This document shows, piece by piece, positions 6,005 through 47,684 of a stretch of 64,000 bases of DNA. How positions within the stretch are numbered: position 1 is the first letter of the stretch; each line of letters starts with the position of its first letter. Origin of the DNA: a virus (Duplodnaviria > Heunggongvirae > Uroviricota > Caudoviricetes > Thumleimavirales > Hafunaviridae); IMG/VR virus record IMGVR_UViG_638276137_000001, positions 1-64,000 of that record; one strand, written 5' to 3'. The notes under the pieces are model-generated. The model was not told the origin of the DNA, ran no database searches, and worked only from the letters and a program-made list of their open reading frames with translations. A program made the position numbers and the translations under genes.

Positions 6005-6673
6005 ATGACGTGGAGAGACTACCCCGAGGACTGGATGGGAAACCCGGACGGCAGAGACTACCACTACCGATTCCACGCTAACAACGAGGATGCTTGGAAG
6101 CGGCTTCGGAAGGCTCGCTGGATGAATCGGTGGTTCGAGATGTATCCGAAGGATATGAAGCACCTTCGAGTGAAGCTCCCCCACGTCACCGTCAAGACCT
6201 ACGACCACAAGGGTCACATCGAGGGGATGGCGAAGTATGCCTGCTCTCCTGATTGGAAGGTCGTTCCCTACTCCCGAGGGAAGTGGGAGATGAAGCACGC
6301 CTCTCGTGGCGGCTCAAAGCTCCGGTGTGAGGAATACACCGGGGAGAAGTGGGGGAAGCTGACTGTCGAGTTCACCGTCGAACACACTCCGAAGGAGATT
6401 CGGGAAGCCTACGAGAAGGGCGTCAACGAGGCCGAAATCGAGACTTCCATCCGAAATGGCCTTCATTGGGCCGTCGAGGAACGCATCGACGAACTCCGAG
6501 AGGAGAAATGGGAGTACCAGAACGAGGTCTGTGACCACAAACACGTAGTTACTGACCGTGGAACCTACGGAGCCGAGGCGTTCTGTGAGGACTGTAATAA
6601 GCTCTGGATGGACTCGATGGAGCTTGACTCTGCTATCGAGAGTGACGAGATTACGGTAGTCGGTTCGGTCTAA
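6005..6673 (+). CDS. Hypothetical protein with a C-terminal Cys/His cluster (CDHKH...CEDC)
   Basis: 222-aa ORF whose ATG overlaps the upstream stop. Trp-rich N-terminal region. Confidence 0.55.
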   Translation: MTWRDYPEDWMGNPDGRDYHYRFHANNEDAWKRLRKARWMNRWFEMYPKDMKHLRVKLPHVTVKTYDHKGHIEGMAKYACSPDWKVVPYSRGKWEMKHASRGGSKLRCEEYTGEKWGKLTVEFTVEHTPKEIREAYEKGVNEAEIETSIRNGLHWAVEERIDELREEKWEYQNEVCDHKHVVTDRGTYGAEAFCEDCNKLWMDSMELDSAIESDEITVVGSV

Positions 6674-10116: not shown

Positions 10117-10370
10117 CTGCGGTGTCACCCCGGTAGTATGGAAGAAGACCTTGAGAAGATAGAGCAAGCCGACTACGACTACTTCTACTCCCTTCGGAGG
10201 AAGGCGTGTTGGCGTCGGCGTGGAAAGTCGAAGCCCCGCCGCGACGTGTCTGAGATAATTGACATAGAGCGGCGGGAGTGGCGAGAGTAAACGGCGAAAC
10301 GCCCCACCGTGGGGCGTCGTCGGGAGTTGGTCATCCCGGCTGTTGACGAGCCGACCAGACACCTCTAAAA

Positions 10371-18419: not shown

Positions 18420-18508
18420 AGGTCGCGGTGGCCTCCCGACTCGTTTGCTTGGCAGAATCCTGTCATAGTTTGTCATTGGTGTCCAGCCACCGCCTCGCGG
18501 TGGTTTTT

Positions 18509-18583
18509 GGGGACGTAGCTCAGCTCGGACAGAGCGTTCGGCTTCTAACCGAAAGTGCGCGGGTTCAAATCCCGTCGTCTCCG
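18509..18583 (+). tRNA. tRNA-Arg (anticodon TCT)
   Basis: Manually folded cloverleaf. Acceptor GGGGACG/CGTCTCC with one G-U pair. D-arm GCTC...GAGC. Anticodon stem TTCGG/CCGAA with loop CTTCTAA. T-arm GCGGG-TTCAAAT-CCCGT. Confidence 0.8.
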
Positions 18584-18628
18584 TGCGGTGTATCGTGCCG
18601 TCAAACAGACCAGAGAGAAATCTACGAA

Positions 18629-20708: not shown

Positions 20709-20735
20709 CAAGCGCCCAAATCCCCTCTTTCTCTT

Positions 20736-20808
20736 GCCGAGGTAGCTCAGTTGGTAGAGCGCCTGACTGTTAATCAGGTAGTCGAAGGTTCGAGTCCTTC
20801 CCTCGGCG
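20736..20808 (+). tRNA. tRNA-Asn (anticodon GTT)
   Basis: Perfect cloverleaf. Acceptor GCCGAGG/CCTCGGC. D-arm GCTC-AGTTGGTA-GAGC. Anticodon arm CCTGA-CTGTTAA-TCAGG. T-arm GAAGG-TTCGAGT-CCTTC. Confidence 0.85.
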
Positions 20809-20827
20809 TCGGGTATCTTCCCTTAAT

Positions 20828-20897
20828 CTGGACGTGTTCAAGGAGAACAGCTCGGCTGTAAACCGAGTGTAGGGCGGTTCGATTCCGCCCGTCCAGA
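20828..20897 (+). tRNA. tRNA-Tyr-like (anticodon GTA) with a shortened D-arm
   Basis: Acceptor CTGGACG/CGTCCAG is perfect. Anticodon arm CTCGG-CTGTAAA-CCGAG. T-arm GGCGG-TTCGATT-CCGCC. The D region is only about 14 nt (GTTC-AAGGA-GAAC), so it may be a pseudo or virus-type tRNA. Confidence 0.45.
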
Positions 20898-20978
20898 CTT
20901 TCCTACGGCGCAAATACCTATGCCGTAGCTGGCTTCGCACCGAATGACAAACAGAACCAGAGAAACCTACTTCAACAA

Positions 20979-37515: not shown

Positions 37516-38880
37516 ATGATTGTAGAAGGAGAAAGCACGACAGCAGAGGTACACCTACCAGAAGAAGAAGTGGAAGACGGACTCCAAGAGGAAATACAGG
37601 AGATGGTTGACCACGAGGCGTTCCAGAACCCCGTGAAGTTCATGCCGGACTGTCACGGGGGACTCGGCCCGGCGTGTATCGTCGGGTTCTCGATGCCGCT
37701 GACTGACCGCGTGATTCCGAAGACGGTCGGGGGCGACATTGGGTGTGGCATGACGGCGGCACGACTCGATGTGTCGAAAGCCGACCAGCCCTCCGACATA
37801 GACGACTTCCGTGCGGTGAACAAGGAGGTGCGCGACCGGGTTCCGATGGGGACGGGTCGCGTTCACAAAGAACAGAAGGTCGAACTTGAGTGGTCGTTCC
37901 CGTGGTGGAAGGCGAACGAGAAGCTACTCCACTTCTACGACGCGATGGACTTCGACTACGAGAGTAGGGACGAGGGGATGTTCCGCCCGTCTTACTTCGA
38001 GAAGATGTGTAAGCGGGTCGGAATCGACGTGGACTACGCAATCCGCTCTCTCGGGACGCTCGGCTCGGGTAATCACTTCATCGAGCTGGCTGAGTCCGAG
38101 GTGTCCGACGAGATGTGGGTGGTCGTTCACTCCGGCTCTCGGAACCTCGGTCAGAAGGTCGCGTCGTACTGGCAAGAGAAGGCGACCGAACACCGTGACG
38201 CCGACGTGAAGTGGAGTGAGATGGGCGAGCGGTTGAAGCACTACACGAACCCGGACGGCTCCCCGGATTGGGAGAAGATTCGGCTCTACAACGAAGGCGA
38301 GGAAATCGAGCGTATCGGGTCGGAGATTGAGTCCTACTCCCCGGACTCGAACCGGAACAAAGACCTCGACTACCTCGAAGGCCGCGAAGCCTACGGGTAT
38401 TACTACGACATGATGCTCGCTCAGACTTACGCGAGCTTCAATCGCCTTCTCATGGTTCAGGAGGTGGCCGAAACCCTCGATGCGTCGATTACCAAGTTCC
38501 TCAACTCCCCGCACAACTACGTGGACTTCGAGGATATGGTGATTCGGAAAGGCTCCACCCGCGCTCAGAACGGTGAGCTGTTCACCATCCCGATGAACAT
38601 GGAAGACGGAACCCTGCTCTGCCGAGGTCGCGGAAACCCCGAATACAACTACTCGGCTCCCCACGGCGCGGGCCGACTCGGTTCCCGTGGATGGGCGCAC
38701 TCGGAGTTCGACGCCGACGAAGCCCGCAAGCGGATGTACGACAACGGAACGTACTCTGCTCGGGTTCCGGGCGACGAAGTGCCGGAAGCGTACAAGCCAC
38801 CGGAGCTAATCGAGGAACACATCACCCCGACTGCCGAAGTCGTTGACCGGCTGAAGCCCGTGATTAACTTCAAGAAATAG
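37516..38880 (+). CDS. rtcB: RtcB-family 3'-phosphate/5'-OH RNA ligase
   Basis: RtcB motifs GGDIGCGM, GTLGSGNHFIE, HSGSRNLG and C-terminal SAPHGAGR (nucleophile His). Confidence 0.9.
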   Translation: MIVEGESTTAEVHLPEEEVEDGLQEEIQEMVDHEAFQNPVKFMPDCHGGLGPACIVGFSMPLTDRVIPKTVGGDIGCGMTAARLDVSKADQPSDIDDFRAVNKEVRDRVPMGTGRVHKEQKVELEWSFPWWKANEKLLHFYDAMDFDYESRDEGMFRPSYFEKMCKRVGIDVDYAIRSLGTLGSGNHFIELAESEVSDEMWVVVHSGSRNLGQKVASYWQEKATEHRDADVKWSEMGERLKHYTNPDGSPDWEKIRLYNEGEEIERIGSEIESYSPDSNRNKDLDYLEGREAYGYYYDMMLAQTYASFNRLLMVQEVAETLDASITKFLNSPHNYVDFEDMVIRKGSTRAQNGELFTIPMNMEDGTLLCRGRGNPEYNYSAPHGAGRLGSRGWAHSEFDADEARKRMYDNGTYSARVPGDEVPEAYKPPELIEEHITPTAEVVDRLKPVINFKK

Positions 38881-38971: not shown

Positions 38972-39439
38972 ATGGCATCTGAAGAACCAGATGGTGTCTT
39001 GACGCTGGAACTTTCGGGGGATGACGGACTCCAAGCGTTTAATAGATTCATCGAGGAGACTGGTTTTAGCGATACAGTCAATAGCATCAAGGTCACAATC
39101 GAGGCCGACTCCCCGATTGATTTGACTGAATACATCACGGGGAGTGAGATAGAGAAAAGAGAGTCTGACCCGCCTGATGTGGTTACGTTTGAAGACGGCT
39201 CTCGGACTCGAAAGCTGGCGGAGTTTCTATACGAATACAACGGCGACGGGTGGTACACGACTAACGAAATTCGGGATTCTCTCACCGAGGATTGTGGGAT
39301 TGACCCCGACGACGTGAGCCAAATTCTGTGGGAGCTATCCGAGCGTGACGTTGTGGAGAAGCGCCCCTTCGATGGGGATGGTCGGAAGAAGGAGTATCGC
39401 CTGAACGAGCTTGGTTTTCGCTCGGTCGAAGCTCTTTGA
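38972..39439 (+). CDS. Putative winged-helix DNA-binding protein
   Basis: C-terminal segment WYTTNEIRDSLTED...SQILWELSERDVVEKRPFDGDGRKKEYRLNELG looks like a wHTH (PadR/ArsR-like). It is the last plus-strand gene before the integrase. Confidence 0.5.
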   Translation: MASEEPDGVLTLELSGDDGLQAFNRFIEETGFSDTVNSIKVTIEADSPIDLTEYITGSEIEKRESDPPDVVTFEDGSRTRKLAEFLYEYNGDGWYTTNEIRDSLTEDCGIDPDDVSQILWELSERDVVEKRPFDGDGRKKEYRLNELGFRSVEAL

Positions 39440-40633
39440 CTACCAGATTTGTTCGACGGCGCTCCCTCGGGTGTCTGAGTCTGAGTGGAGGTACTTCATC
39501 GTCGTCGTGACGCTCTTGTGGCGGAGCTGTTCTTTCGCGTGGTGAGGCCCGACGTGGTTAGCCCAATACGTAGCGACCCCGTGGCGGATGCTGTACCACG
39601 AGAGGTCGTCTTTCTGGTTTTCGGGTATCGGGACGTTCCCCGACTCGATGATTCGTTCCAGCAGGCCGTTACACGAGTCGGATGTGTACGACCGGGCTTT
39701 CTGCGTGAGCCATAGCTCGTCCCGACCGTCGTACTTCTCCATCGTCTTGCGTTCCTCCATCCAGCGTTCGAGAGCCTTCGCGGTGCGTTTCTGTATCGCG
39801 CAATTCCAATGGCCCTCGTTCTTCGTGGACTCGTCCTTCGGGATGTTCAGCTCGTTGTCTTGGAGGTTGACCCACGAGACTTTGGCGCGTCCAACCTCGA
39901 TGGGTCGAAGCCCACAATCCAGAGTCGTCGCTATCATCGAGGGGTACTTCCACGAGTTTGCTTTCTTGAACTCGTCAGCCCCGACTTTTTCCTTCGGAAC
40001 TTGGAGACGCATCGAGACGTAGTTTTTCAACTCTGTGCGTTCCTCCGGCGTACACGAGTAGTAGCTTTTGACCGACGAGTGTTGGAGCGCGGCTTGATAC
40101 AGCGGCTCGAACGCGGCTCGTCGGAGGTAGTCTCGCTCGTCGCCGTTGGACTGGCTGAGTTCGAGGTCGGGTTCCCAATCGTAGTCTTTGCCCTGCGCGT
40201 GGTTACAGTAGCGGAAGTAGCGGCGAATGTCCTTCGCGTGGTGAAGCACGGTGCTGTCAATCATCGAGTCGCTTTGATTCAACAGCGAGATGAACTTCTC
40301 CGCGTGTTCGGGCGTGAACTTGGTGGTGTATTGGCCCTCGTATTTCCATAACCAGCGGAAGACGGTTTCGAGCTTGTAGTGGGTGGACTCCAGCGTGGTG
40401 CGGGCGAGTCCTTCGTACTTGTCGGGATTCTTCCCGTAGTTGCCGAGCCACGTCAGAACTTCCTCTTTGAAGTCGTGGTAGTCTTCGACCATGTTGAGGC
40501 CGAAGGCTTCGAGGTCTTCTCGTGAGCGTTTGCTGACGAGGGGGAATCCAAACTCGATGGGTTCGGGCGCGGGTGGTATATCCTCGGATGCCGCGCTCAT
40601 TTCCACGCTATCGAGGGGGTCGGTTTGGTTCAT
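39440..40633 (-). CDS. Tyrosine recombinase / integrase (XerC/D family)
   Basis: C-terminal catalytic region RHGVATYWANHVGPHHAKEQLRHKSVTTTMKYLH contains HxxR and the terminal Tyr. 397 aa. Confidence 0.85.
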   Translation of the reverse strand: MNQTDPLDSVEMSAASEDIPPAPEPIEFGFPLVSKRSREDLEAFGLNMVEDYHDFKEEVLTWLGNYGKNPDKYEGLARTTLESTHYKLETVFRWLWKYEGQYTTKFTPEHAEKFISLLNQSDSMIDSTVLHHAKDIRRYFRYCNHAQGKDYDWEPDLELSQSNGDERDYLRRAAFEPLYQAALQHSSVKSYYSCTPEERTELKNYVSMRLQVPKEKVGADEFKKANSWKYPSMIATTLDCGLRPIEVGRAKVSWVNLQDNELNIPKDESTKNEGHWNCAIQKRTAKALERWMEERKTMEKYDGRDELWLTQKARSYTSDSCNGLLERIIESGNVPIPENQKDDLSWYSIRHGVATYWANHVGPHHAKEQLRHKSVTTTMKYLHSDSDTRGSAVEQIW

Positions 40634-40818
40634 CGTCCGTTCCCCCCACTCTGTGTTCCCGCGCGTGCGGGGTTACACGTTATAGTGTCCTGACAACTAC
40701 ACAAATCGCAAGACGGCGCGGTGGTGGTCGTTTGTGGGTAGAGTGCGTTCTTGGTTCGCATTGTTTCGTCTCCAAGAAGCACGCAAAATGGGGTGAGAAT
40801 CCCCGTGAAGGCTGAAAG

Positions 40819-40889
40819 CCTGAGGGGGGATTTGAACCCCCGGTCTCGTCCTTACCAAGGACGCGCTTTACCGAGGTGGCCTTCGGCCC
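40819..40889 (-). other. tRNA-like fragment (T-arm GGGGG-TTCAAAT-CCCCC plus a Thr-like GGT anticodon arm) without a matching 5' acceptor strand; candidate attP core
   Basis: On the minus strand it reads ...CGTCC-TTGGTAA-GGACG...GGGGG-TTCAAAT-CCCCC-CTCAGGC. I could not find a 5' strand that pairs with CTCAGGC, so it looks like a partial or degenerate tRNA next to the integrase. Confidence 0.35.
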
Positions 40890-41086
40890 TGAAAGGGGCT
40901 ACCTTTGCCGGTAACTCCCCCTCTGCGTGCCTCTGTACCAGCTACTACAAATCCTATTTATAAATAAATAGGGGGTATAGCCCCGTATGCCGTCTGTGGA
41001 CACCCCGTTTCCACAAACGAATGTGGGGAAATGAAGTCCAAAACACTACCCCCCGTTTTATAATCCCCCGGTGTGTGGTTCTTTAT

Positions 41087-41275
41087 ATGCAACTCACCCC
41101 GAAACACCTCGCCTTCCTCGAACACGAGATGGAACAAATCAAGGACGACCTCGACCGAGACTACGAAGACCGAAACCTCGCCGCAGAAATCTTCGGCATG
41201 GTCGAAGGGGAAATAGAGTGGGAAAAAGAGCGTCAACACAACGGCGACGTTTCCCCCGAAGAAATCTTTTCCTGA
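41087..41275 (+). CDS. Small acidic protein upstream of the restriction-modification gene
   Basis: ORF 41021..41275 trimmed to ATG 41087 (MQLTPKHLAF). Confidence 0.3.
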   Translation: MQLTPKHLAFLEHEMEQIKDDLDRDYEDRNLAAEIFGMVEGEIEWEKERQHNGDVSPEEIFS

Positions 41276-41344
41276 GTCAACGCATCGAACTCGGTGGCGC
41301 ACCTCGGCCTAACGATTGAGTAACCCGTCCCATATACAACCTTT

Positions 41345-44300
41345 TTGAAGGTATGCTGTTTGTGGTCTGTTATGGTAGATACGTCGGAGTTTCTTGAATC
41401 CCTCCACGGGATAGCATCCCGACTCGATGCGGATATGAGTGAGAAGGACGTTGAAAATGCCTTCCTTAATGAAAGCTTCTTTAGTATTCTCGGGTACGAG
41501 GGCGCAGGGTACGACCTGAGAAGCGAGTGGACTCTCCCCGACGACCGACGACCGGACTACGTAACTCTGGACGAAAGCGAATCAGTCACCGCTGTATTCG
41601 AGTTCAAAACAACTGGACGTGACCTCTCTCCTAACGAAGACCAGCTTTTCCACTACGTTAACGAGCTGAAAGCTGACTACGGGGTTCTCACGAACGGTGA
41701 GGAGTTCAGGCTCTACAAGCGGGAGGGCCGTAGTAGAATCGTCGGAATTGCTCTCGAAAATGCGACCGAGAGTGACGCCGCAGATATAGCATCTGCCCTC
41801 AAGAAACCGGAATGGGACATTACTGACCCTGATGGTGTTCAAGAATACATCGCCTCGCTCGATGAGGTAGAACTCAATTCAGACCTCGGGCGAGAACACT
41901 TCTTCGACACATTCCGCTTGGAGGAGAACAGCCCATTCGCTGACCTCATAACGGCGCTGATGGACTTGCTCGTGGAGCTGAGAGATGAACAAGATGCGAA
42001 GTTTGTGACGGGGGCCTACGACTTTTGGGAAGCCAGCTACGCGAGCGAACCCGACGAAACGCCCGACTCGTGGGAACCCTTCATCGGAGGGGAACACTCC
42101 CTTCGTGACTTTATGTTTTGTCTGGAGAGCGGCCACGCGCTTCTCGCTCGGCTCCTACTCGCCAAAGCGACGGAAGACCACGACTTCTTCCGAAACACCG
42201 CCTACGGAGGGATGAGCGAATACTTCAGAGGACTCGAAGGATTCGGGGACAACATCAGCCTCGATGCCTACCCCGTCGCCGCCAACGGGCTGATTGAGGA
42301 TATGGAAGAACACCTCGTTCAGAGCCTTTTCGAGGACGACATCTTCATCTGGTGGACTGACGGCTTCGCGGAGCAAATGACCCGTTCCCACGCATCGAGG
42401 GCAAGCCAGTTCCAAGACGTAGCGAAGGGGACGGGCGAGGTCACAAAAATCAGTCCGGCGACCCGCGACCGATTCAGCCGAGCAATTGCCCACGTCTTCT
42501 TCTCTGTCCTGAAGTTCGACTTCGAGGAAATCGAAGGCGACCTCTTGGGCGACCTCTACCAGCACTACTTCGACCCGGAGACACGCAAAGCTCTCGGGGA
42601 GTTCTACACGCCACAGCCGGTCATCGACTACATTATGGACGGCGTTGATTACAACGTCGGCGTCTCTGGTGAGCGGCTAATTGACCCGTCCTGCGGGTCG
42701 GGGACGTTCCTCGTGGAAGCCGTAAATCGGTACATCGAGGACGTGAAGCGATACAACGACGACCCCGATTGGGAAGAACACCTCACCGACCTCTGTACGA
42801 CACCCCACATCGTCGGCCTCGACATTCACCCGTTCGCTGTCCTGATGGCACAGATTCGGTTTATGGTCGCTATCCTCCCCGAGTATCGGGATGCGAAAGA
42901 GGACAACCGCGACTTCACTATTCGTCGGCTCCCCATCTACCGAACAGACACGCTTCGGAACGAGCGTGAGCTGACAGGTATCGACCTCGGGAACGACGGG
43001 CAGAAGCAAATGACCCTCGATGGGGTGACGGACGACAATCAGGATGTGAAGATTCCTGTCCCGCTCCCCGTGGAGGTCGATGAAGACGAAGTAGAGGAGA
43101 CTGAAGATGGGTTCCTCGTTCAGCGGGTTCGGATGCCGCTGTACGACACGGCCCGCCTGAACGCCAGCATCCACAACTTCGGGGAATACTTCGCGGCTCT
43201 ACAAGGCGTTCTCGACGTTGTGAAGTGGTATATGGAGGAGGAGACGTGGGAATACAGCGGTGGGCTTGAACAGGGAATCTACCGCTATACAAACCAAGAG
43301 TACGACGGCATCGAGGAGTTCTTCGCTCCCTACGTGGACGATATTCTGAACACCGTTCGGTATCTCCGTGAGGAACACGGCGACGGTCGCCTGTTCAAAA
43401 TCTTCGAGGACACCGTTCTCGCTCTGGTCGTCAAGAACTACATGGACTACGACTACGTGGTGGGGAATCCCCCCTACGTTCGTATCCAGCATCTCCCCGA
43501 CCAGCAGAAGGCGATGCTCGAACAACTGTATGACTCCACCACGGGGAACTACGACCTCTACTGCCCCTTCTACGAGCGTGGGCTTGACTTCCTGAAAGAC
43601 GGAAATGGGAAGCTCGGGTACATTACGCCCAATCAGTTCATGGTCACGGACTACGGCGAGGGGATACGTCGTGTCCTGCTTCGAGACTCCCGACTCGATG
43701 AAATCTACGACTTCCGTGATTCAGGAGTCTTCGAGGACGCAACGAACTACCCGGCAATCGTGATTGCGGAAGATGAGCCGGATGAGGACGTTCGAGAGAA
43801 CAACGAGATTCGGTGTGTCCGGGTCAAAGGGAACGTGGATGAGGATAGTGGGCCTTCGGTAGACGAAGAAATCATCGAGGGGGTTCGAGAACATCGTGGA
43901 GAACCCGGTTACAGCGACGACTATATTGACGTATTCGACTACCCCCAGTCCGAGCTGGACGAAAACTACTGGCCTCTCTGCCCTCCCGAGGAGCGGAAGA
44001 TTCTGAACAAGCTCGACGAGAACCGGGATTCGCCCCTCGAAGAAGTCGTGGACTCCGCGTTCGCGGGAACACAGACGAGTGCGAACAAGGTCTTCGTTGT
44101 TGTTCCGGTCAATGCGGATAGGATTGAGGCTGGTGAACAGGGAGACGTTGTTAGAGTAATTCCGCAAGGAGAGGAGAAGGAATACGAGATTGAGACAGAC
44201 CTTCTCAAGCCGTGGTTACAGGGTCGAGATATAGAGCGGTGGCGGGGTGATTGGTCTGGACAGCACGTTATCTCTCCGTACAGAGAGACAGACGATGGTG

Positions 44301-45238
44301 ATGTTGAACTCATCCCCGAGGATTACATCAGGGATGAACTCCCGCTGTCGTGGGATTACTTCGAGGCCCACAAGGAAACCTTAGAGGGACGTGAAGGTGG
44401 GAAGTGGGAGGGGCGCGACGATTGGTATGCCTTCGGCTATCCGAAAAGTATGGAGCGGTTCGAGAAGCCGAAGCTAATCGGAGCTGAGATTGCTGGTGAG
44501 GCCACGTTCATGCTGGACGAAAAGGGGACGTGGTACTTCAAGGCAGGATACGGTGTTCAGTTGGAGCCGAAATATCAAAACCGAACGGAGACTTTCGCCG
44601 CGCTCCTGAACTCAAATGTCCTTGACTTCTACCTCAAGCACATCACGAGCATCAAGATGGGAGGGTACTACAAATACACCTCTCACTATCTCGAACCGCT
44701 ACCAGTCTCGTGGGGGAGCGACAGTCAGCGGGAGAGTATCAACAGTACCCTTTCCGATATTGTGACTACCTTCGATACGGAGAATCGGATTGATAGGTTC
44801 CCTGAAGCGTATCTTGGTGAGTACGACGGGAACCTCGATTACATCAACTATGAGTGGCAGACTCGCAGATACCCGGTCAATGCGGATATTCAGGAGAAGT
44901 CCGATGGCCGGTTCGCCGTTACTGCTGGTCGTTCAGACGAAATCACTCATCCGGTGATGGATTCAGGAAACCGCGAGGTACGGAAACTTCGAGCGAAGTA
45001 CGTTCACGCCGCCGTTGACGGTCGGAATATGAAAAGCGGTGAGGAGCAGACGATTCCGATACCACAGACTCGTCGGGGAGTGGAACAGCTCATCGAGTCG
45101 TTTGAAGAAGACCGAGAAACCATCGAGAACGCGAGTATTGACGAACTGGAAAGAGAGATTGATAGCTCGGTCTACGACATATTCGGGTTAACCGACGAGG
45201 AGAGGGAGGTCGTGGACGAATACATGGAGGTCTTCTGA
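41345..45238 (+). CDS. Type IIG (MmeI-like) single-chain restriction endonuclease / N6-adenine DNA methyltransferase
   Basis: N-terminal PD-(D/E)xK region RRPDYVTL...AVFEFKTTG. Gamma-class methyltransferase motif I DPSCGSGTFLVEA precedes motif IV VVGNPPYV. A long C-terminal putative target-recognition region follows. 1297 aa. Confidence 0.7.
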   Translation: MKVCCLWSVMVDTSEFLESLHGIASRLDADMSEKDVENAFLNESFFSILGYEGAGYDLRSEWTLPDDRRPDYVTLDESESVTAVFEFKTTGRDLSPNEDQLFHYVNELKADYGVLTNGEEFRLYKREGRSRIVGIALENATESDAADIASALKKPEWDITDPDGVQEYIASLDEVELNSDLGREHFFDTFRLEENSPFADLITALMDLLVELRDEQDAKFVTGAYDFWEASYASEPDETPDSWEPFIGGEHSLRDFMFCLESGHALLARLLLAKATEDHDFFRNTAYGGMSEYFRGLEGFGDNISLDAYPVAANGLIEDMEEHLVQSLFEDDIFIWWTDGFAEQMTRSHASRASQFQDVAKGTGEVTKISPATRDRFSRAIAHVFFSVLKFDFEEIEGDLLGDLYQHYFDPETRKALGEFYTPQPVIDYIMDGVDYNVGVSGERLIDPSCGSGTFLVEAVNRYIEDVKRYNDDPDWEEHLTDLCTTPHIVGLDIHPFAVLMAQIRFMVAILPEYRDAKEDNRDFTIRRLPIYRTDTLRNERELTGIDLGNDGQKQMTLDGVTDDNQDVKIPVPLPVEVDEDEVEETEDGFLVQRVRMPLYDTARLNASIHNFGEYFAALQGVLDVVKWYMEEETWEYSGGLEQGIYRYTNQEYDGIEEFFAPYVDDILNTVRYLREEHGDGRLFKIFEDTVLALVVKNYMDYDYVVGNPPYVRIQHLPDQQKAMLEQLYDSTTGNYDLYCPFYERGLDFLKDGNGKLGYITPNQFMVTDYGEGIRRVLLRDSRLDEIYDFRDSGVFEDATNYPAIVIAEDEPDEDVRENNEIRCVRVKGNVDEDSGPSVDEEIIEGVREHRGEPGYSDDYIDVFDYPQSELDENYWPLCPPEERKILNKLDENRDSPLEEVVDSAFAGTQTSANKVFVVVPVNADRIEAGEQGDVVRVIPQGEEKEYEIETDLLKPWLQGRDIERWRGDWSGQHVISPYRETDDGDVELIPEDYIRDELPLSWDYFEAHKETLEGREGGKWEGRDDWYAFGYPKSMERFEKPKLIGAEIAGEATFMLDEKGTWYFKAGYGVQLEPKYQNRTETFAALLNSNVLDFYLKHITSIKMGGYYKYTSHYLEPLPVSWGSDSQRESINSTLSDIVTTFDTENRIDRFPEAYLGEYDGNLDYINYEWQTRRYPVNADIQEKSDGRFAVTAGRSDEITHPVMDSGNREVRKLRAKYVHAAVDGRNMKSGEEQTIPIPQTRRGVEQLIESFEEDRETIENASIDELEREIDSSVYDIFGLTDEEREVVDEYMEVF

Positions 45239-45266
45239 CTCAGCCAATCGAATTTAGCGCGAAGGT

Positions 45267-47684
45267 CTACTTACACGGCGAGAACCAGCACTCGGGACAC
45301 ACCGCGCAATCGTCCGTCTTCTCAAGCTCACCGTCACCACACTCCGGGCAGGTGAGCGTATCCGAACCCACGTCGTCCTCGCTAACGATACCGAGCTGAA
45401 CCGCCGCCTTCTCGCTCACCTCGCCCTTGAGGTATAGTTCGAGAAGGTCGTCGTCGCGGTCGCCCTCGTCGTCCAGATTGTTGTCCACACGAGTCGTGAG
45501 AACCTGCTGGTCGCGGGAGCCGTCACGGTACACGGTCAGGCCCTTGATAACCGCGCCACGTCGGCCTTCATCGAGGGCAAGCTGGTAGGCATCCGCCACG
45601 TCGTCGTGTGTCGCCTCGTTCGGGAGGTTGACCGTCTTGCTGATGCCCGAGTCGCAGAACTCTTGGAACGCTCTCTGCATCAGCCCGTGCTGTTCAGAGG
45701 ACAAGTCCTGCGTCGTGACGAAGATTTCCGCAATCTCGTCGGGAATCGACAGGTCGTTGACTCCATCAAACTCGTTGTTCCGCATCAGCGTCTCCGCTTC
45801 CTCCTTCACGGCGTCCACATCGAGGTCGTTTTCCTCCAGCGTCCGAAGGAAGTAGTCGTCAAACTCCACGAGCAGGTCGTCGCCCTGAATGTCCTCGGAG
45901 ACGTTCTTGAAGTTCGCCACGTTGTAGGCAGGCTCACACCCGCCCGTCGTGTTTCCAATCATCGAGGTGGTTCCGGTCGGAGCGATAGTCGTGATGTTGT
46001 GGTTGCGGATGGGGAAGCCACCGGCCCAATCCTCGGGGTCAAGCCCCGTGCGAGCGGCGAACCACTCGTCGTACTCGGTCGGGTCAGCGTACTTCGACTT
46101 GTCCCAGTAGGAGAACGCCCCACGTTCGAGAGCGAGCCGGTGAGAGGCCCACGTCCCCCTCCGGTCGATGTATCGCATGACGCACCGCGCGACCTCGTAG
46201 GAGTCCTGCGTGCCGTAGGGGACGCCCATCTGGTAGAGCATCTGCGCGAAGCCCATGATTCCGAGTCCGATTTTCCGCATCCCACCGACGCGCTCGGTAA
46301 TCTCGGGGATGGGGAAGTCGGACTGCGTGACTACGTTATCGAGGAATCGAGTACCCGCCTCGATGGTTCTGTCCAGCTCGTTGAAGTCCACGGCAGTCTC
46401 GAAGTACCACTCCACGGCCTCCCGAGTCGAAAGGTCGCCGCTGGCTACGTCCTCCAGCTTGTCGCTCAGGAACTCGTCGTAGGTCGGAGCATCCTCGCTG
46501 AGCATCAGAGAGAGGTTGATGTGGCCGAGGTTACACGCCTCGTACTCCACGAGCATCTGCTCGGCGCAGGGGTTAGTCGCGTTCATGCGGAACTCGGGAT
46601 ACTCCTCAACGTCGAACGAGTGCTGGCGGTTCGACTCCTCGAAGTTGAACAGGCCCGGCTCACCGTTCCGCCACGCCCCGTCAATCATCACGTCCCAAAT
46701 GAACGCGGCGGGAAGCTCCATCGGCTCACCAACTTCAAGCCGAAGACCCTCGTGACCCTCCCACTTCTCGCGGAGCGTGACTCGCTCGCCGTACAGCTCA
46801 CACTCAATTTCGTCGGCGTAGTCCCGCCACAGGTTCTCCTCCACGACCGCGCCCTCGCCGTCGTCAAAGGCGTCACGCGGGTTGTCCTGATACTCCGGGG
46901 AGTAGAAGTGGGCCGACAGCTCTCGCACCGTGTACGGCTCCTCGTAGTCAGTCTCCGGGTCGTACAGGGTATAGGACTCCTGAGCGTCAACTGCCTCGAT
47001 GAAGTTGTCCGTCGTAGCGACCGAGATGTTGAAGTTCGCAAACTCGCCCTCGTTTCGCTTCGCCACGATGAACCGACCAATATCCGGGTGGTCGGCGCGG
47101 AGAATACCCATCTGAGCGCCACGACGCTTGCCGCCCTGCTTCACCTGATTACACGTCTCGTCAAAGACCCGCATGAAGCTCACCGGGCCGGACGCCTCGC
47201 CACCAGTCGAATTAATGAAGGCTCCCTTCGGTCGGAGGTGGGAGAAGGCGTACCCGACGCCACCCCCGCTCTGGAAGATGAGAGCGGCCTGCTGAGCCGT
47301 CTCGAAAATGTCTTCCATGTCGTCGCGGGGTTCGATTACGAAACACGCAGAGAGCTGATTCATGTCCGTCCCGGCGTTCATCAGCGTCGGGCTGTTCGGC
47401 ATGAACCGGAGCGTCTTCATCTGGTGTTCAAACTCATCGGCCCACGTATCGAAGTCCCCGTCTTCCTCGGCTCCGGCGACGTTCTCAGCGACTCGTCGGA
47501 ACAGGTCGTCAGCCCCCTCGATGATGTTACCCTCCGAGTCTTTTCGGAAGTAGCGGGCCGGGAGGATTCCATGAAGGGCGTTATCAGTAAGGCGGTCTTC
47601 TACGGTGAGCGATTCGTCAACGGTCTTGATGGGGGTTTCAACGGTCTGTTCTTCTGTTTCAGTTTCAGTTGTGACTACGGACAT
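45267..47684 (-). CDS. Ribonucleotide reductase large subunit, probably class II (B12-dependent)
   Basis: Active-site motif NATNPCAEQ (NPC[GA]E type). C-terminal zinc ribbon CPECGDGELEKTDDCAVCPEC. 805 aa with the RNR core fold. Confidence 0.8.
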   Translation of the reverse strand: MSVVTTETETEEQTVETPIKTVDESLTVEDRLTDNALHGILPARYFRKDSEGNIIEGADDLFRRVAENVAGAEEDGDFDTWADEFEHQMKTLRFMPNSPTLMNAGTDMNQLSACFVIEPRDDMEDIFETAQQAALIFQSGGGVGYAFSHLRPKGAFINSTGGEASGPVSFMRVFDETCNQVKQGGKRRGAQMGILRADHPDIGRFIVAKRNEGEFANFNISVATTDNFIEAVDAQESYTLYDPETDYEEPYTVRELSAHFYSPEYQDNPRDAFDDGEGAVVEENLWRDYADEIECELYGERVTLREKWEGHEGLRLEVGEPMELPAAFIWDVMIDGAWRNGEPGLFNFEESNRQHSFDVEEYPEFRMNATNPCAEQMLVEYEACNLGHINLSLMLSEDAPTYDEFLSDKLEDVASGDLSTREAVEWYFETAVDFNELDRTIEAGTRFLDNVVTQSDFPIPEITERVGGMRKIGLGIMGFAQMLYQMGVPYGTQDSYEVARCVMRYIDRRGTWASHRLALERGAFSYWDKSKYADPTEYDEWFAARTGLDPEDWAGGFPIRNHNITTIAPTGTTSMIGNTTGGCEPAYNVANFKNVSEDIQGDDLLVEFDDYFLRTLEENDLDVDAVKEEAETLMRNNEFDGVNDLSIPDEIAEIFVTTQDLSSEQHGLMQRAFQEFCDSGISKTVNLPNEATHDDVADAYQLALDEGRRGAVIKGLTVYRDGSRDQQVLTTRVDNNLDDEGDRDDDLLELYLKGEVSEKAAVQLGIVSEDDVGSDTLTCPECGDGELEKTDDCAVCPECWFSPCK

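What the first reader, a model, noticed from the sequence alone, without database searches (positions are those of the whole stretch)
39440..45238. Island of integrase, tRNA-fragment and type IIG restriction-modification fusion inside a lytic-type myovirus genome
A tyrosine integrase (minus strand) is followed by a 450-nt non-coding stretch carrying a tRNA 3'-half-like sequence (GGGGG-TTCAAAT-CCCCC with no matching 5' acceptor, attP-like). Next come a 63-aa ORF and a 1297-aa MmeI-like single-chain nuclease/gamma-N6A-methyltransferase. The PD-ExK nuclease motif D...EFK appears intact. A complete restriction-modification enzyme carried by a virus, rather than a bare protective methyltransferase, could serve host-DNA degradation or superinfection exclusion. 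Alternatively the block may be a mobile cassette that landed in the virus, wedged between the early/middle block and the RNR gene.
Basis: partly seen in the sequence, partly recalled or inferred. Interest (0 to 1): 0.7.

Follow-up and report, generated by a model that had tools for sequence, protein, structure and literature searches.

The report
Known attP–integrase and type IIG enzyme, halovirus HF2
The window is the well-studied archaeal virus HF2, and the flagged block holds its published integration module (integrase plus a tRNA-Thr fragment used as attachment site) next to a swappable slot carrying an intact single-chain restriction-modification enzyme, so it is real but already described.

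Summary
The window is Halorubrum virus HF2 (AF222060.2) at identical coordinates. Three details need correcting:
- The "450-nt non-coding stretch" contains a conserved 43-aa CxxC ORF.
- The small ORF is 62 aa.
- The large protein starts at ATG 41372 (1288 aa, published transcription start at 41369), not at TTG 41345.

The block is two separate modules, not one island.

1. Integrase, CxxC ORF and a partial tRNA-Thr(GGT) attP are conserved and syntenic in every relative examined. The attP role is published, with proviruses found in tRNA-Thr genes. I confirmed a 59-nt core identical to intact tRNA-Thr genes of several Halorubrum species.
2. Only ~41282–45264 is variable. Relatives carry the HF2-type enzyme, a variant with a swapped recognition domain, two unrelated methylase fusions (one on the opposite strand), or nothing.

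The HF2 enzyme has an N-terminal PD-(D/E)xK nuclease. D62 and K79 are kept in all 121 full-length sequences aligned (HF2 plus 120 homologs) and E77 in 120. The domain's fold matches DrdV and BpuSI. SAM-binding and NPPY motifs and a TaqI-like recognition domain are intact. Purifying selection in viruses is very strong (dN/dS ≈ 0.03).

Liu et al. 2021 already annotate it as type IIG and propose host-DNA or competitor degradation. Verdict: correct rediscovery, already known, low interest.

The parts
38972..39439 (+). Winged-helix DNA-binding protein gene, directly abutting the 3' end of the integrase gene. Conserved neighbour and a possible regulator of the lysogeny module (inferred only).
   Evidence: Annotated in HF2 and present in all relatives examined. 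No Pfam hit.
39440..40633 (-). Tyrosine site-specific integrase, 397 aa.
   Evidence: Pfam Phage_integrase E=5.4e-15, 56 bits. Weak XerA/XerC-family hits, all below cutoff. Conserved in all relatives at 88-94% aa identity (100% in Hardycor2) with dN/dS 0.11-0.17. Homologs of 68-70% identity flank tRNA-Thr in Halobellus ordinarius.
40630..40761 (-). 43-aa CxxC-motif ORF between attP and int, overlapping the int start by 4 nt. Reported as co-transcribed with int.
   Evidence: Annotated in HF2, Hardycor2, Serpecor1, HRTV-16, HRTV-9 and HRTV-15. Part of the three-gene module transcribed from T-40936 (PMC8707807). No family hit.
40815..40887 (-). attP: a partial tRNA-Thr(GGT). The 59-nt core at 40815-40873 matches the 3' part of host tRNA-Thr, from the D-loop to just past the 3' end. 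The 5' 14 nt (40874-40887) is degenerate.
   Evidence: Rfam tRNA 33.4 bits with broken acceptor and D stems; not called by ARAGORN. The 57-nt core matches 8 haloarchaeal genomes exactly. In seven of them it lies inside an intact tRNA-Thr(GGT) gene, six of them Halorubrum. Identity stops sharply at both edges. The attP role and proviruses are published.
40953..40972 (.). AT-rich imperfect inverted repeat (CCTATTTAT-AA-ATAAATAGG) forming the shared TATA element of a bidirectional promoter. Leftward start at 40936 (attP, CxxC, int); rightward start at 40979 (62-aa ORF and the enzyme gene).
   Evidence: Sequence read directly. Transcription starts and bidirectional use of the TATA box come from primer extension in PMC8707807.
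41087..41275 (+). 62-aa acidic ORF of unknown function. It is conserved even in Serpecor1, which lacks the enzyme gene, so it belongs to the core and is not a controller protein of the cassette.
   Evidence: Annotated in HF2, Serpecor1, Hardycor2, HRTV-16 and HRTV-9. Homology with Serpecor1 runs through it up to 41288. No family hits.
41282..45264 (+). Variable cargo slot (the published 'MDR-C'). In HF2 it holds the enzyme gene and its own promoter.
   Evidence: BLASTN breakpoints: Serpecor1 homology ends at 41288 and resumes at 45265. Hardycor2 ends at 41325 and resumes at 45265. In HRTV-15 the unit 41282-45239 sits as a block downstream of two extra genes.
41372..45238 (+). Single-chain type IIG restriction-modification enzyme, 1288 aa, translated from a leaderless mRNA.
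   Evidence: Pfam Eco57I 109 bits, N6_Mtase, TaqI_C, HSDR_N. PADLOC REase_MTase_IIG 1.1e-50. Transcription start at 41369. dN/dS 0.03 across 7 viral alleles.
41372..41776 (+). N-terminal PD-(D/E)xK nuclease domain (aa 1-135). Catalytic codons: D62 at 41555-41557, E77 at 41600-41602, K79 at 41606-41608.
   Evidence: AlphaFold pLDDT about 90 for aa 1-150, with D62 at the start of strand 63-66 and E77-x-K79 on strand 72-78. Foldseek top hits are DrdV 7lvv/7lo5, BpuSI 3s1s and an HsdR fragment. D62 121/121, E77 120/121, K79 121/121. Domain dN/dS 0.043.
42467..43801 (+). N6-adenine methyltransferase domain (aa 366-810) with a ~145-aa insertion. SAM motif D438-P-S-C-G-S-G444 at 42683-42703; catalytic N699-P-P-Y702 at 43466-43477.
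   Evidence: Pfam and PDB sequence matches to M.BseCI, CamA and type I M subunits. Motifs kept in at least 120 of 121 homologs, apart from the variable S/A440. dN/dS 0.00-0.01.
43802..44791 (+). Target-recognition domain (aa 811-1140, TaqI_C type). It is the most variable domain of the family.
   Evidence: Pfam TaqI_C 43.7 bits. Aligns with the recognition domains of M.BseCI and CamA. Mean identity to homologs 55%, minimum 41%. Only 23% identity to HRTV-9's domain, while HRTV-9's nuclease domain is 81% identical.

Best explanation
Two adjacent but independent modules of the haloarchaeal myovirus HF2.

Module A, about 39.0-41.3 kb, is the conserved lysogeny module. A tyrosine integrase, a small CxxC protein and attP are transcribed leftwards from a bidirectional promoter at about 40.95 kb. 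attP is a 59-nt copy of the 3' part of host tRNA-Thr(GGT). Recombination with a matching host tRNA-Thr gene inserts the circularised genome and regenerates the tRNA 3' end. HF2 is lytic on Hrr. coriense only because that host lacks a matching tRNA.

Module B, 41.28-45.26 kb, is an accessory cargo slot immediately beside attP. After integration it would lie at a prophage end. In HF2 it holds a stand-alone type IIG restriction-modification enzyme with its own promoter and a leaderless mRNA. One polypeptide carries an N-terminal PD-(D/E)xK nuclease, a helical linker, an N6-adenine methyltransferase and a TaqI-like recognition domain.

Inferred mechanism: the enzyme binds a short asymmetric site, methylates an adenine in it with SAM, and cuts unmodified DNA at a fixed distance from the site. 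For the virus, the methylation protects its own DNA, including against the many host enzymes of the same family. The nuclease attacks unmodified DNA, meaning the host chromosome or co-infecting or superinfecting elements.

Shown here or in the literature: identity, architecture, intact motifs, variability of the slot, strong purifying selection, transcription starts, attP function. Inferred: enzymatic activity, recognition site, and the biological role of the nuclease.
For: - Identity of the window.
- attP: a 57-nt core matches 8 genomes exactly and lies inside intact tRNA-Thr(GGT) genes in seven of them. Identity ends sharply on both sides. Integrase homologs sit next to the site in Halobellus ordinarius. 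[quoted passage not shown] The absence of a matching tRNA in Hrr. coriense is published (PMC8707807).
- Module A is core: int, attP and the 62-aa ORF are syntenic in Serpecor1, Hardycor2, HRTV-16, -9, -26, -15 and -20.
- The slot is variable. It is empty in Serpecor1. Hardycor2 and HRTV-26 carry an unrelated 1174-aa enzyme on the opposite strand, with PD-x14-ENK at aa 92-110. HRTV-20 carries a third, 975-aa type. HRTV-9 carries a variant with a swapped recognition domain.
- Enzyme: domain hits; nuclease fold; whole-chain similarity to CamA/M.BseCI, then BrxX, BpuSI and DrdV; catalytic residues of both activities kept in at least 120 of 121 full-length sequences.
- Selection: seven distinct viral alleles are all 1288 aa without stops. 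dN/dS is 0.03 overall and 0.043 for the nuclease domain, against 0.11-0.19 for RtcB, Int and RNR in the same genome pairs (0.09-0.23 across all pairs).
- Stand-alone system: HF2 has no other annotated methyltransferase. Cellular homologs are solitary genes without BREX or specificity-subunit partners.
- Own promoter: transcription start at 41369.
Against: - There are no biochemical data for this enzyme or any close homolog. The recognition site is unknown, and Liu et al. leave that column blank.
- The family members in Haloferax volcanii (HVO_A0006/A0237 fragments, HVO_A0079) contribute no detectable methylation (PMC5867850). Several cellular homologs are decayed pseudogenes. Inactivity is therefore common in this family.
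- Among the seven near-identical viral alleles only 8 of 135 nuclease-domain residues vary. Their sparing of the catalytic residues is not significant on its own.
- The N-terminal profile has no sequence-level match to any solved nuclease. The catalytic assignment rests on the fold, the weak Pfam HSDR_N hit and the motif geometry.
- The whole-chain model has moderate confidence (pLDDT 72).
- Methylation of HF2 virion DNA has not been reported in the papers I read.
Confidence: 0.85

Rival explanations
1. The protein serves the virus only as a protective methyltransferase, an anti-restriction device. The nuclease domain is retained for structural or allosteric reasons and does not cut DNA during infection.
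For: The published interpretation by Dyall-Smith et al. and the 2025 preprint treats it as counter-defence through self-methylation. Hosts commonly carry enzymes of the same family at 64-72% identity, and one non-viral homolog reaches 86% with 88% identity in the recognition domain, so matching their methylation would be useful. In type IIG enzymes the two activities are structurally coupled (BpuSI literature).
Against: The nuclease domain itself is under strong purifying selection in viruses (dN/dS 0.043). All catalytic residues are kept across 121 full-length sequences, including the diverged HRTV-9 copy. A virus needing only methylation could carry a much smaller orphan methyltransferase, as other haloviruses do. 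The unrelated Hardycor2-type enzyme in the same slot also keeps a PD-ExK motif.
Confidence: 0.25
2. The whole 39.4-45.3 kb block (integrase, attP and enzyme) is one integrative mobile island that inserted into a strictly lytic virus.
For: An integrase and an att-like site lie next to a defence-type gene. The region sits at the junction of the early/middle and late transcription blocks.
Against: Int, the CxxC ORF, attP and the 62-aa ORF are present and syntenic in every relative, including Serpecor1, which lacks the enzyme gene. No flanking direct repeat or second att copy is annotated, and base composition does not deviate. Whole viral genomes, not a 6-kb island, are found integrated at tRNA-Thr. 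The dS of the enzyme gene is similar to that of the flanking genes.
Confidence: 0.03
3. The protein is a BREX-type PglX/BrxX methyltransferase or another non-cleaving defence methylase, not a restriction enzyme.
For: PADLOC PglX model E=2.9e-44. NCBIfam BREX-2 PglX 141 bits. Foldseek aligns about 1070 columns with BrxX/PglX structures.
Against: The NCBIfam score is far below the 400-bit cutoff. No BREX partner genes (PglZ, BrxC, BrxL) occur in HF2 or next to cellular homologs. The protein has an N-terminal PD-ExK nuclease domain matching DrdV and BpuSI; from my own knowledge, not tested here, PglX lacks such a domain. The PADLOC type II methyltransferase and type IIG models score better.
Confidence: 0.02

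Closest known systems
The HF1/HF2/HRTV-5 'N-6 DNA methylase' or 'type IIG restriction modification enzyme' as already annotated (Dyall-Smith et al. 2020, PMC7230728; Liu et al. 2021, PMC8651126, Tables S3 and S4)
   Same: It is this very protein. It is 100% identical in HF1 and 97.5-98% identical in the 14 other viral records that carry it. Liu et al. already describe an N-terminal endonuclease, a middle N6 methylase and a C-terminal recognition domain, with an HHpred match to BpuSI 3S1S.
   Different: Nothing differs. What I add is residue-level conservation in 121 sequences, domain-wise dN/dS, exact slot boundaries and start-codon support.
Type IIL/IIG single-chain enzymes DrdV (PDB 7LVV, 7LO5) and BpuSI (3S1S)
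   Same: N-terminal PD-x(14-15)-ExK nuclease fold (Foldseek probability 1.0; TM 0.62 to the isolated DrdV nuclease chain). Overall order is nuclease, helical linker, N6A methyltransferase, recognition domain. One stand-alone polypeptide.
   Different: No detectable sequence similarity in the nuclease domain. About 275 to 420 aa longer, with a ~145-aa insertion in the methyltransferase and an extra ~150-aa C-terminal domain. Whole-chain TM-scores are low (0.15-0.22). Halophilic, highly acidic protein. Activity not demonstrated.
M.BseCI and CamA (gamma-class N6-adenine methyltransferases with a TaqI-like recognition domain)
   Same: Best sequence and structure matches for aa ~690-1130 (phmmer E=6.6e-25; Foldseek E about 1e-17). 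Same NPPY catalytic motif and recognition-domain type.
   Different: Those are methyltransferase-only proteins of about 550-580 aa with no nuclease domain.
MmeI family
   Same: Same general type IIG/IIL architecture. Weak partial hit to the MmeI_Mtase model.
   Different: None of the other MmeI-specific Pfam domains is detected at E<=0.01. The family signature is Eco57I plus TaqI_C.
tRNA-targeting integrase-attP modules of temperate viruses and archaeal integrative elements in which the int gene stays intact
   Same: attP is a copy of the 3' part of a tRNA gene placed next to int. Integration regenerates the tRNA. Proviruses are flanked by tRNA-Thr copies.
   Different: Nothing unusual, apart from the small CxxC ORF between attP and int, whose role (possibly a directionality factor) is unknown.

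Membership tests
Type IIG (IIC/IIL) single-chain restriction-modification enzymes | Nuclease and methyltransferase in one polypeptide, with an N-terminal PD-(D/E)xK domain | tested here: met
   P61-D62-x14-E77-x-K79 on the canonical strands of a confident model. Fold matches DrdV, BpuSI and HsdR nuclease domains. Pfam HSDR_N E=5.8e-7. Residues conserved in 120-121 of 121 sequences.
Type IIG (IIC/IIL) single-chain restriction-modification enzymes | N6-adenine methyltransferase with SAM-binding motif I and catalytic NPPY, followed by a recognition domain in the same chain | tested here: met
   DPSCGSG at aa 438-444 and NPPY at 699-702, kept in at least 120 of 121. Pfam Eco57I, N6_Mtase and TaqI_C all above cutoff. 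PADLOC REase_MTase_IIG 1.1e-50.
Type IIG (IIC/IIL) single-chain restriction-modification enzymes | Stand-alone: no separate methyltransferase or specificity subunit, and no helicase/translocase motor (which would indicate type ISP or type I) | tested here: met
   HF2 has no other annotated methyltransferase. Neighbours of cellular homologs are unrelated. No helicase-domain hit in Pfam.
Type IIG (IIC/IIL) single-chain restriction-modification enzymes | SAM-dependent or SAM-stimulated cleavage at a fixed distance from an asymmetric site, and methylation of that site | not testable with these tools
   This needs biochemistry or methylome sequencing. No recognition sequence is listed for it by Liu et al..
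MmeI family sensu stricto | MmeI-specific N-terminal, helical, recognition and C-terminal domains (Pfam MmeI_* models) | tested here: not met
   Only MmeI_Mtase is hit, and that hit is partial (profile positions 134-200 of 259, E=2.7e-10). No other MmeI model at E<=0.01.
BREX PglX/BrxX methyltransferase | Score above the NCBIfam equivalog cutoff, and linkage to BREX genes (PglZ, BrxC, BrxL) | tested here: not met
   BREX_2_MTaseX 141 bits against a cutoff of 400; BREX_1 55 against 500. No BREX genes in HF2 or beside cellular homologs.
Tyrosine recombinase / phage integrase | C-terminal catalytic domain of the Phage_integrase family | tested here: met
   PF00589 56 bits against a cutoff of 27.1, covering aa 226-385. 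The RHG and KYLH signature stretches are visible in the translation, by eye only.
attP of a tRNA-integrating temperate virus | A core identical to the 3' part of a host tRNA gene, next to int, with divergence outside the core; proviruses flanked by that core | tested here: met
   The 59-nt core at 40815-40873 is identical to intact tRNA-Thr(GGT) genes. Integrase homologs lie beside the site in Halobellus ordinarius. Proviruses are published. Integration by HF2 itself has not been demonstrated.

The most novel reading that the evidence does not exclude
The position immediately beside attP in Haloferacalesviruses acts as a dedicated hot spot for restriction-modification cargo. At least three unrelated large methylase fusions, two of them with PD-ExK motifs, plus a variant with a swapped recognition domain, have been captured in the same ~4-kb slot in either orientation. 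The HF2-type enzyme, including its nuclease domain, is under tighter purifying selection than the virus's own ribonucleotide reductase, integrase and RtcB. This would mean the nuclease is an actively used viral weapon, either degrading host DNA or excluding superinfecting elements from the prophage end. It would be comparable to the defence hot spots of P2/P4-like bacterial prophages, and not a mere protective methylase.
Probability: 0.35. Interest if true: 0.4.

Novelty: already known. Interest (0 to 1): 0.15.

Why it matters
It matters little as a discovery. The integrase-attP module, the variable methylase region ('MDR-C') and the type IIG annotation with an N-terminal endonuclease are all published for HF1, HF2 and their relatives.

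The one open point of some value is functional. No archaeal virus-encoded type IIG enzyme has been shown to cut DNA, and its recognition site and role are unknown. The conserved catalytic residues and the very low dN/dS reported here make HF1/HF2 a reasonable system for testing whether archaeal viruses use a complete restriction enzyme offensively. HF1 also infects the genetically tractable genus Haloferax.

Tried and rejected
- A homolog search with the N-terminal 335 aa returned only fragments and truncated genes of at most 584 aa. It was useful for motif conservation but misleading about family size. The full-length query then found 491 relatives.
- A profile of the N-terminal domain searched against all PDB sequences found nothing, even at E<=10. 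The link to solved nucleases therefore rests on the fold alone.
The 1-1200 model reached pLDDT 72.
- I considered phase variation or programmed frameshifting, because several cellular homologs break frame at the same place. The break is a G5-to-G4 change in decayed genes: one is split into at least six frame segments and another is a truncated remnant. Rejected as pseudogenisation.
- I looked for cargo next to a virus-like att remnant in Hrr. trapanicum (L014). Only host genes are there (lipoyl synthase, permease, phosphatase), so it is a scar and not a provirus.
- An Rfam scan of 38.5-46 kb found nothing except the marginal tRNA.
- I considered a recent horizontal sweep of the cassette among viruses, because it is 93-94% identical at the nucleotide level against ~88% for the flanks. 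The dS values are similar (0.28-0.32 against 0.32-0.50), so low dN explains the excess identity.
- I did not try to infer the recognition motif from k-mer statistics, because self-methylation removes the expected signal.

Full report
**Identity of the window.** Megablast of 36-50 kb against GenBank phage records gives 100% identity over 100% of the query to Halorubrum phage HF2 (AF222060.2 / NC_003345.2), at the same coordinates. The window is the first 64 kb of this 77.7-kb haloarchaeal myovirus (Hafunaviridae, Haloferacalesvirus). The highly acidic translations fit a halophile.

**Check of the observation.** All the elements exist.
- The integrase ORF is 39440-40633(-), 397 aa, with a Phage_integrase domain at 56 bits against a cutoff of 27.1.
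- The tRNA-like sequence is not called by ARAGORN. Rfam's tRNA model hits 40817-40887(-) at 33.4 bits, just above the gathering score of 29, with mismatches in the acceptor stem and a defective D-arm. The anticodon loop reads GGT (Thr), and the T-arm is GGGGG-TTCAAAT-CCCCC.
- The record annotates a 62-aa ORF at 41087-41275 and the 'N-6 DNA methylase' at 41372-45238.

Three corrections apply.
- The stretch between the integrase and the next + strand ORF contains a conserved 43-aa CxxC ORF at 40630-40761(-).
- The small ORF is 62 aa.
- The 1297-aa figure is the maximal ORF from TTG 41345. The real start is ATG 41372, giving 1288 aa. A primer-extension transcription start at 41369 gives a leaderless mRNA (PMC8707807). 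Seven viral copies all start MVDTSEF and run 1288 aa.

**What is already published.**
- Dyall-Smith et al. 2020 (PMC7230728) state that a partial tRNA-Thr(GGT) next to the integrase occurs in all HF1-group viruses. Two proviruses, Hdep-prov1 in Hrr. depositum and ELPmg-prov1, show it to be the attP. They also report that the nearby N-6 methylase gene is present, absent or inverted among relatives, and they name this region 'MDR-C'.
- Russ et al. 2021 (PMC8707807) map transcription starts at 40936 (leftward: attP, CxxC, int), 40979 (rightward) and 41369 (methylase). They explain HF2's lytic behaviour by the lack of a matching tRNA in Hrr. coriense.
- Liu et al. [quoted passage not shown] They list it in 15 further viruses, HF2 among them. 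They suggest that virus-encoded restriction-modification systems could degrade host chromosomes or competing elements.
- The HRTV-5 record of 2013 already notes 'Restriction endonuclease and methylase domains'.

**The attP, re-verified.** The 57-nt 3' portion of the fragment matches eight haloarchaeal genomes exactly. In seven of them (Hrr. trapanicum, sodomense, distributum, xinjiangense, two unnamed Halorubrum strains, and Halobellus ordinarius) it lies inside an intact tRNA-Thr(GGT) gene called by ARAGORN. In the eighth, a MAG, the match is a separate partial copy. BLASTN and a multiple alignment show identity over 59 nt (HF2 40815-40873), from the D-loop (CGGTAAAG…) to just past the tRNA 3' end. 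The sequences diverge abruptly on both sides: hosts read GCCTGGGTAGCTTAG at the 5' side where the virus reads GGCCGAAGGCCACCT. In Halobellus ordinarius the site is flanked by two integrase homologs of 68-70% identity. Hrr. trapanicum and the MAG carry short virus-side remnants next to the tRNA. The neighbouring genes in Hrr. trapanicum are ordinary host genes, so this is a scar of a past integration.

**One island or two modules?** BLASTN of HF2 38.9-48.2 kb against six relatives places the breakpoints precisely.
- Serpecor1 aligns through int, attP and the 62-aa ORF up to 41288 and resumes at 45265, the stop of the ribonucleotide reductase gene. Nothing but 83 nt lies between.
- Hardycor2, which is 99% identical in the flanks, aligns to 41325 and resumes at 45265. 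In between it has a 1174-aa methylase on the opposite strand.
- HRTV-26 has the same arrangement as Hardycor2.
- In HRTV-15 the unit 41282-45239 is present as a block, downstream of two inserted small genes.

So only about 41282-45264, the gene with its promoter, is variable. The winged-helix gene, int, CxxC ORF, attP and 62-aa ORF are core.

Across the phage collection the slot holds:
- the HF2-type enzyme in 18 records at 97.5-100% aa identity;
- an HRTV-9 variant (58%);
- a Hardycor2-type enzyme in Hardycor2 and HRTV-26, with a 43% variant in HRTV-24;
- a third, 975-aa type in HRTV-20 and its relatives, related to the HF2 enzyme only in the methyltransferase core;
- nothing, in Serpecor1.

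Extra genes come and go at the slot edges: a TBP gene in HRTV-9, a 346-aa ORF in HRTV-16, and Zn-finger and L21e-like genes in HRTV-15. Base composition of 41-45 kb is unremarkable.

**Is the cassette a recent arrival?** No. In comparisons of HF2 with HRTV-16 and HRTV-15, the enzyme gene has dS 0.32 and 0.28. Int has 0.35 and 0.49, RNR 0.40 and 0.50, and RtcB 0.41 and 0.37. The higher nucleotide identity of the gene (93-94% against ~88%) comes from very low dN. dN/dS is 0.034-0.036, against 0.11-0.17 for the three neighbouring core genes.

**The enzyme.**
- Pfam finds Eco57I (109 bits), N6_Mtase, TaqI_C, a partial MmeI_Mtase hit, and HSDR_N at aa 66-127 (E=5.8e-7).
- PADLOC's best models are type II methyltransferase and type IIG REase-MTase.
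- NCBIfam BREX PglX models score far below their cutoffs.
- The best PDB sequence matches are M.BseCI and CamA over aa ~690-1130.

In an alignment of N-terminal regions down to 48% identity, E24, D26, E28, D62, E77, Q91 and T107-N108-G109 are invariant. K79 is changed (to E) only in two decayed homologs. In 121 full-length sequences (HF2 plus 120 homologs of 63-98% identity), D62 and K79 are kept in 121 and E77 in 120, with one D. The motif is P61-D62-x14-E77-x-K79. The SAM motif DPxCGSG is kept in at least 120 and the catalytic NPPY in all 121.

An AlphaFold model of aa 1-370 is confident for aa 1-150 (pLDDT about 90). It puts D62 at the start of strand 63-66 and E77-x-K79 on strand 72-78, the canonical PD-(D/E)xK geometry. 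Its best Foldseek matches are DrdV (a type IIL enzyme; the isolated nuclease chain 7lvv_C gives TM 0.62), BpuSI (type IIG) and an HsdR N-terminal fragment. A profile search of PDB sequences finds nothing, so the relationship is visible only at the fold level.

A 1-1200 model (pLDDT 72) matches CamA and M.BseCI best for the methyltransferase and recognition half. It then matches BrxX/PglX, BpuSI and DrdV over about 1000-1160 aligned columns.

The recognition domain is the most variable part of the family, with mean identity 55%. HRTV-9's copy keeps 81% identity in the nuclease domain but only 23% in the recognition domain, which points to a specificity swap.

The unrelated Hardycor2-type protein also carries an N-terminal PD-x14-ENK motif followed by an ATDG motif.

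**Selection in viruses.** Seven distinct viral alleles are all intact. Summed over all pairs, dN/dS is 0.043 (nuclease), 0.028 (linker), 0.00-0.01 (methyltransferase), 0.042 (recognition domain) and 0.046 (C-terminal domain). Eight of 135 nuclease-domain residues vary, and none is catalytic. With so few changes, this last point is not significant by itself. The low dN/dS of the domain is the meaningful signal.

**Context in cells.** The family is abundant in Halobacteria, with 491 hits at E<=1e-20. Full-length members of 64-72% identity occur in Halorubrum, Haloferax, Haloarcula, Halobacterium and other genera. The genes are solitary. They sit in mobile-element-like regions, in an integrase-bearing island, or among housekeeping genes, never with BREX or specificity-subunit partners. 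The closest non-viral homolog is 86% identical overall and 88% in the recognition domain. It lies in a cellular or plasmid context, next to protoglobin transducer, hemerythrin and Cdc6/Orc genes. HF2 has no other annotated methyltransferase.

Some family members are decayed. Hfx. volcanii HVO_A0006/A0237 are fragments of such a gene and contribute no methylation (PMC5867850). Several metagenomic homologs share a frameshift at a G5-to-G4 run or are truncated remnants.

**Interpretation.** The block is the virus's lysogeny module placed next to an accessory slot. After integration at attP the slot would lie at a prophage end, the classical position for cargo genes, and it has its own promoter. 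The enzyme has every sequence feature of an active stand-alone type IIG enzyme, and selection maintains it in the viral lineage. Methylation probably protects viral DNA, including against host enzymes of the same family. The retained nuclease probably acts on unmodified host or competitor DNA. Activity, recognition site and role remain inferred.

**Verdict.** Everything substantive is already in the literature and in the GenBank record. Novelty: already known. Interest: low.

Noticed in passing
window 42010-42014; loci L027 ~6640-6660 and L025 ~6490-6500: The enzyme gene has a G5 run in codons ~213-215. In several cellular and metagenomic homologs it is G4, which shifts the frame right after the nuclease domain. 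Those genes are otherwise decayed: L027 is split into at least six frame segments and L025 is a ~219-aa remnant. This resembles the HVO_A0006/HVO_A0237 fragments of Haloferax volcanii. I read it as pseudogenisation at a slippage-prone site, not regulation.
   Followed up: partly
window 10292-10359 (+): Type II hammerhead ribozyme match (Rfam RF02276, 41.1 bits against a gathering score of 37), just upstream of the Rad3-like helicase gene. It is already annotated in the HF2 record, and its function is unknown.
   Followed up: no
window 18508-18584, 20735-20810, 20828-20898 (+): Three viral tRNA genes: Arg-TCT, Asn-GTT and Tyr-GTA. The Tyr gene scores lower in Rfam (48 bits). All are annotated in the record.
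   Followed up: no
window 39436-39440 (junction of the winged-helix gene and int): A second insertion point. HRTV-16 and HRTV-9 carry an extra 276-285-aa ORF with no Pfam hit, exactly between the winged-helix gene and the integrase. In HF2 these two genes abut.
   Followed up: partly
L005 10043-10582 (HRTV-9); L007 4774-5153 (HRTV-15); L004 10182-11222 (HRTV-16): Other cargo at the edges of the same slot in relatives: a TATA-box-binding protein gene (Pfam TBP 2.3e-41), Zn-finger and L21e-like genes, and a 346-aa ORF with no family hit.
   Followed up: partly
L013 3-899 and 3083-4264 (Halobellus ordinarius); L014 4431-4602 (Hrr. trapanicum DSM 12287); L012 6322-6415 (Haloferacaceae MAG): Two integrase homologs of 68-70% identity flank the tRNA-Thr of Halobellus ordinarius, which suggests tandem or nested integrated elements. 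Short virus-side att remnants lie beside the tRNA-Thr in Hrr. trapanicum and in a MAG; in Hrr. trapanicum the neighbouring genes are host genes. These look like scars of past integrations.
   Followed up: partly
window 41372-45238 compared with 37516-38880, 39440-40633 and 45267-47684: The accessory enzyme gene evolves under tighter constraint (dN/dS about 0.03) than the neighbouring core genes RtcB, integrase and ribonucleotide reductase (0.11-0.19 in the same pairs, 0.09-0.23 across all pairs). This is unusual for a gene that is dispensable in some relatives.
   Followed up: yes
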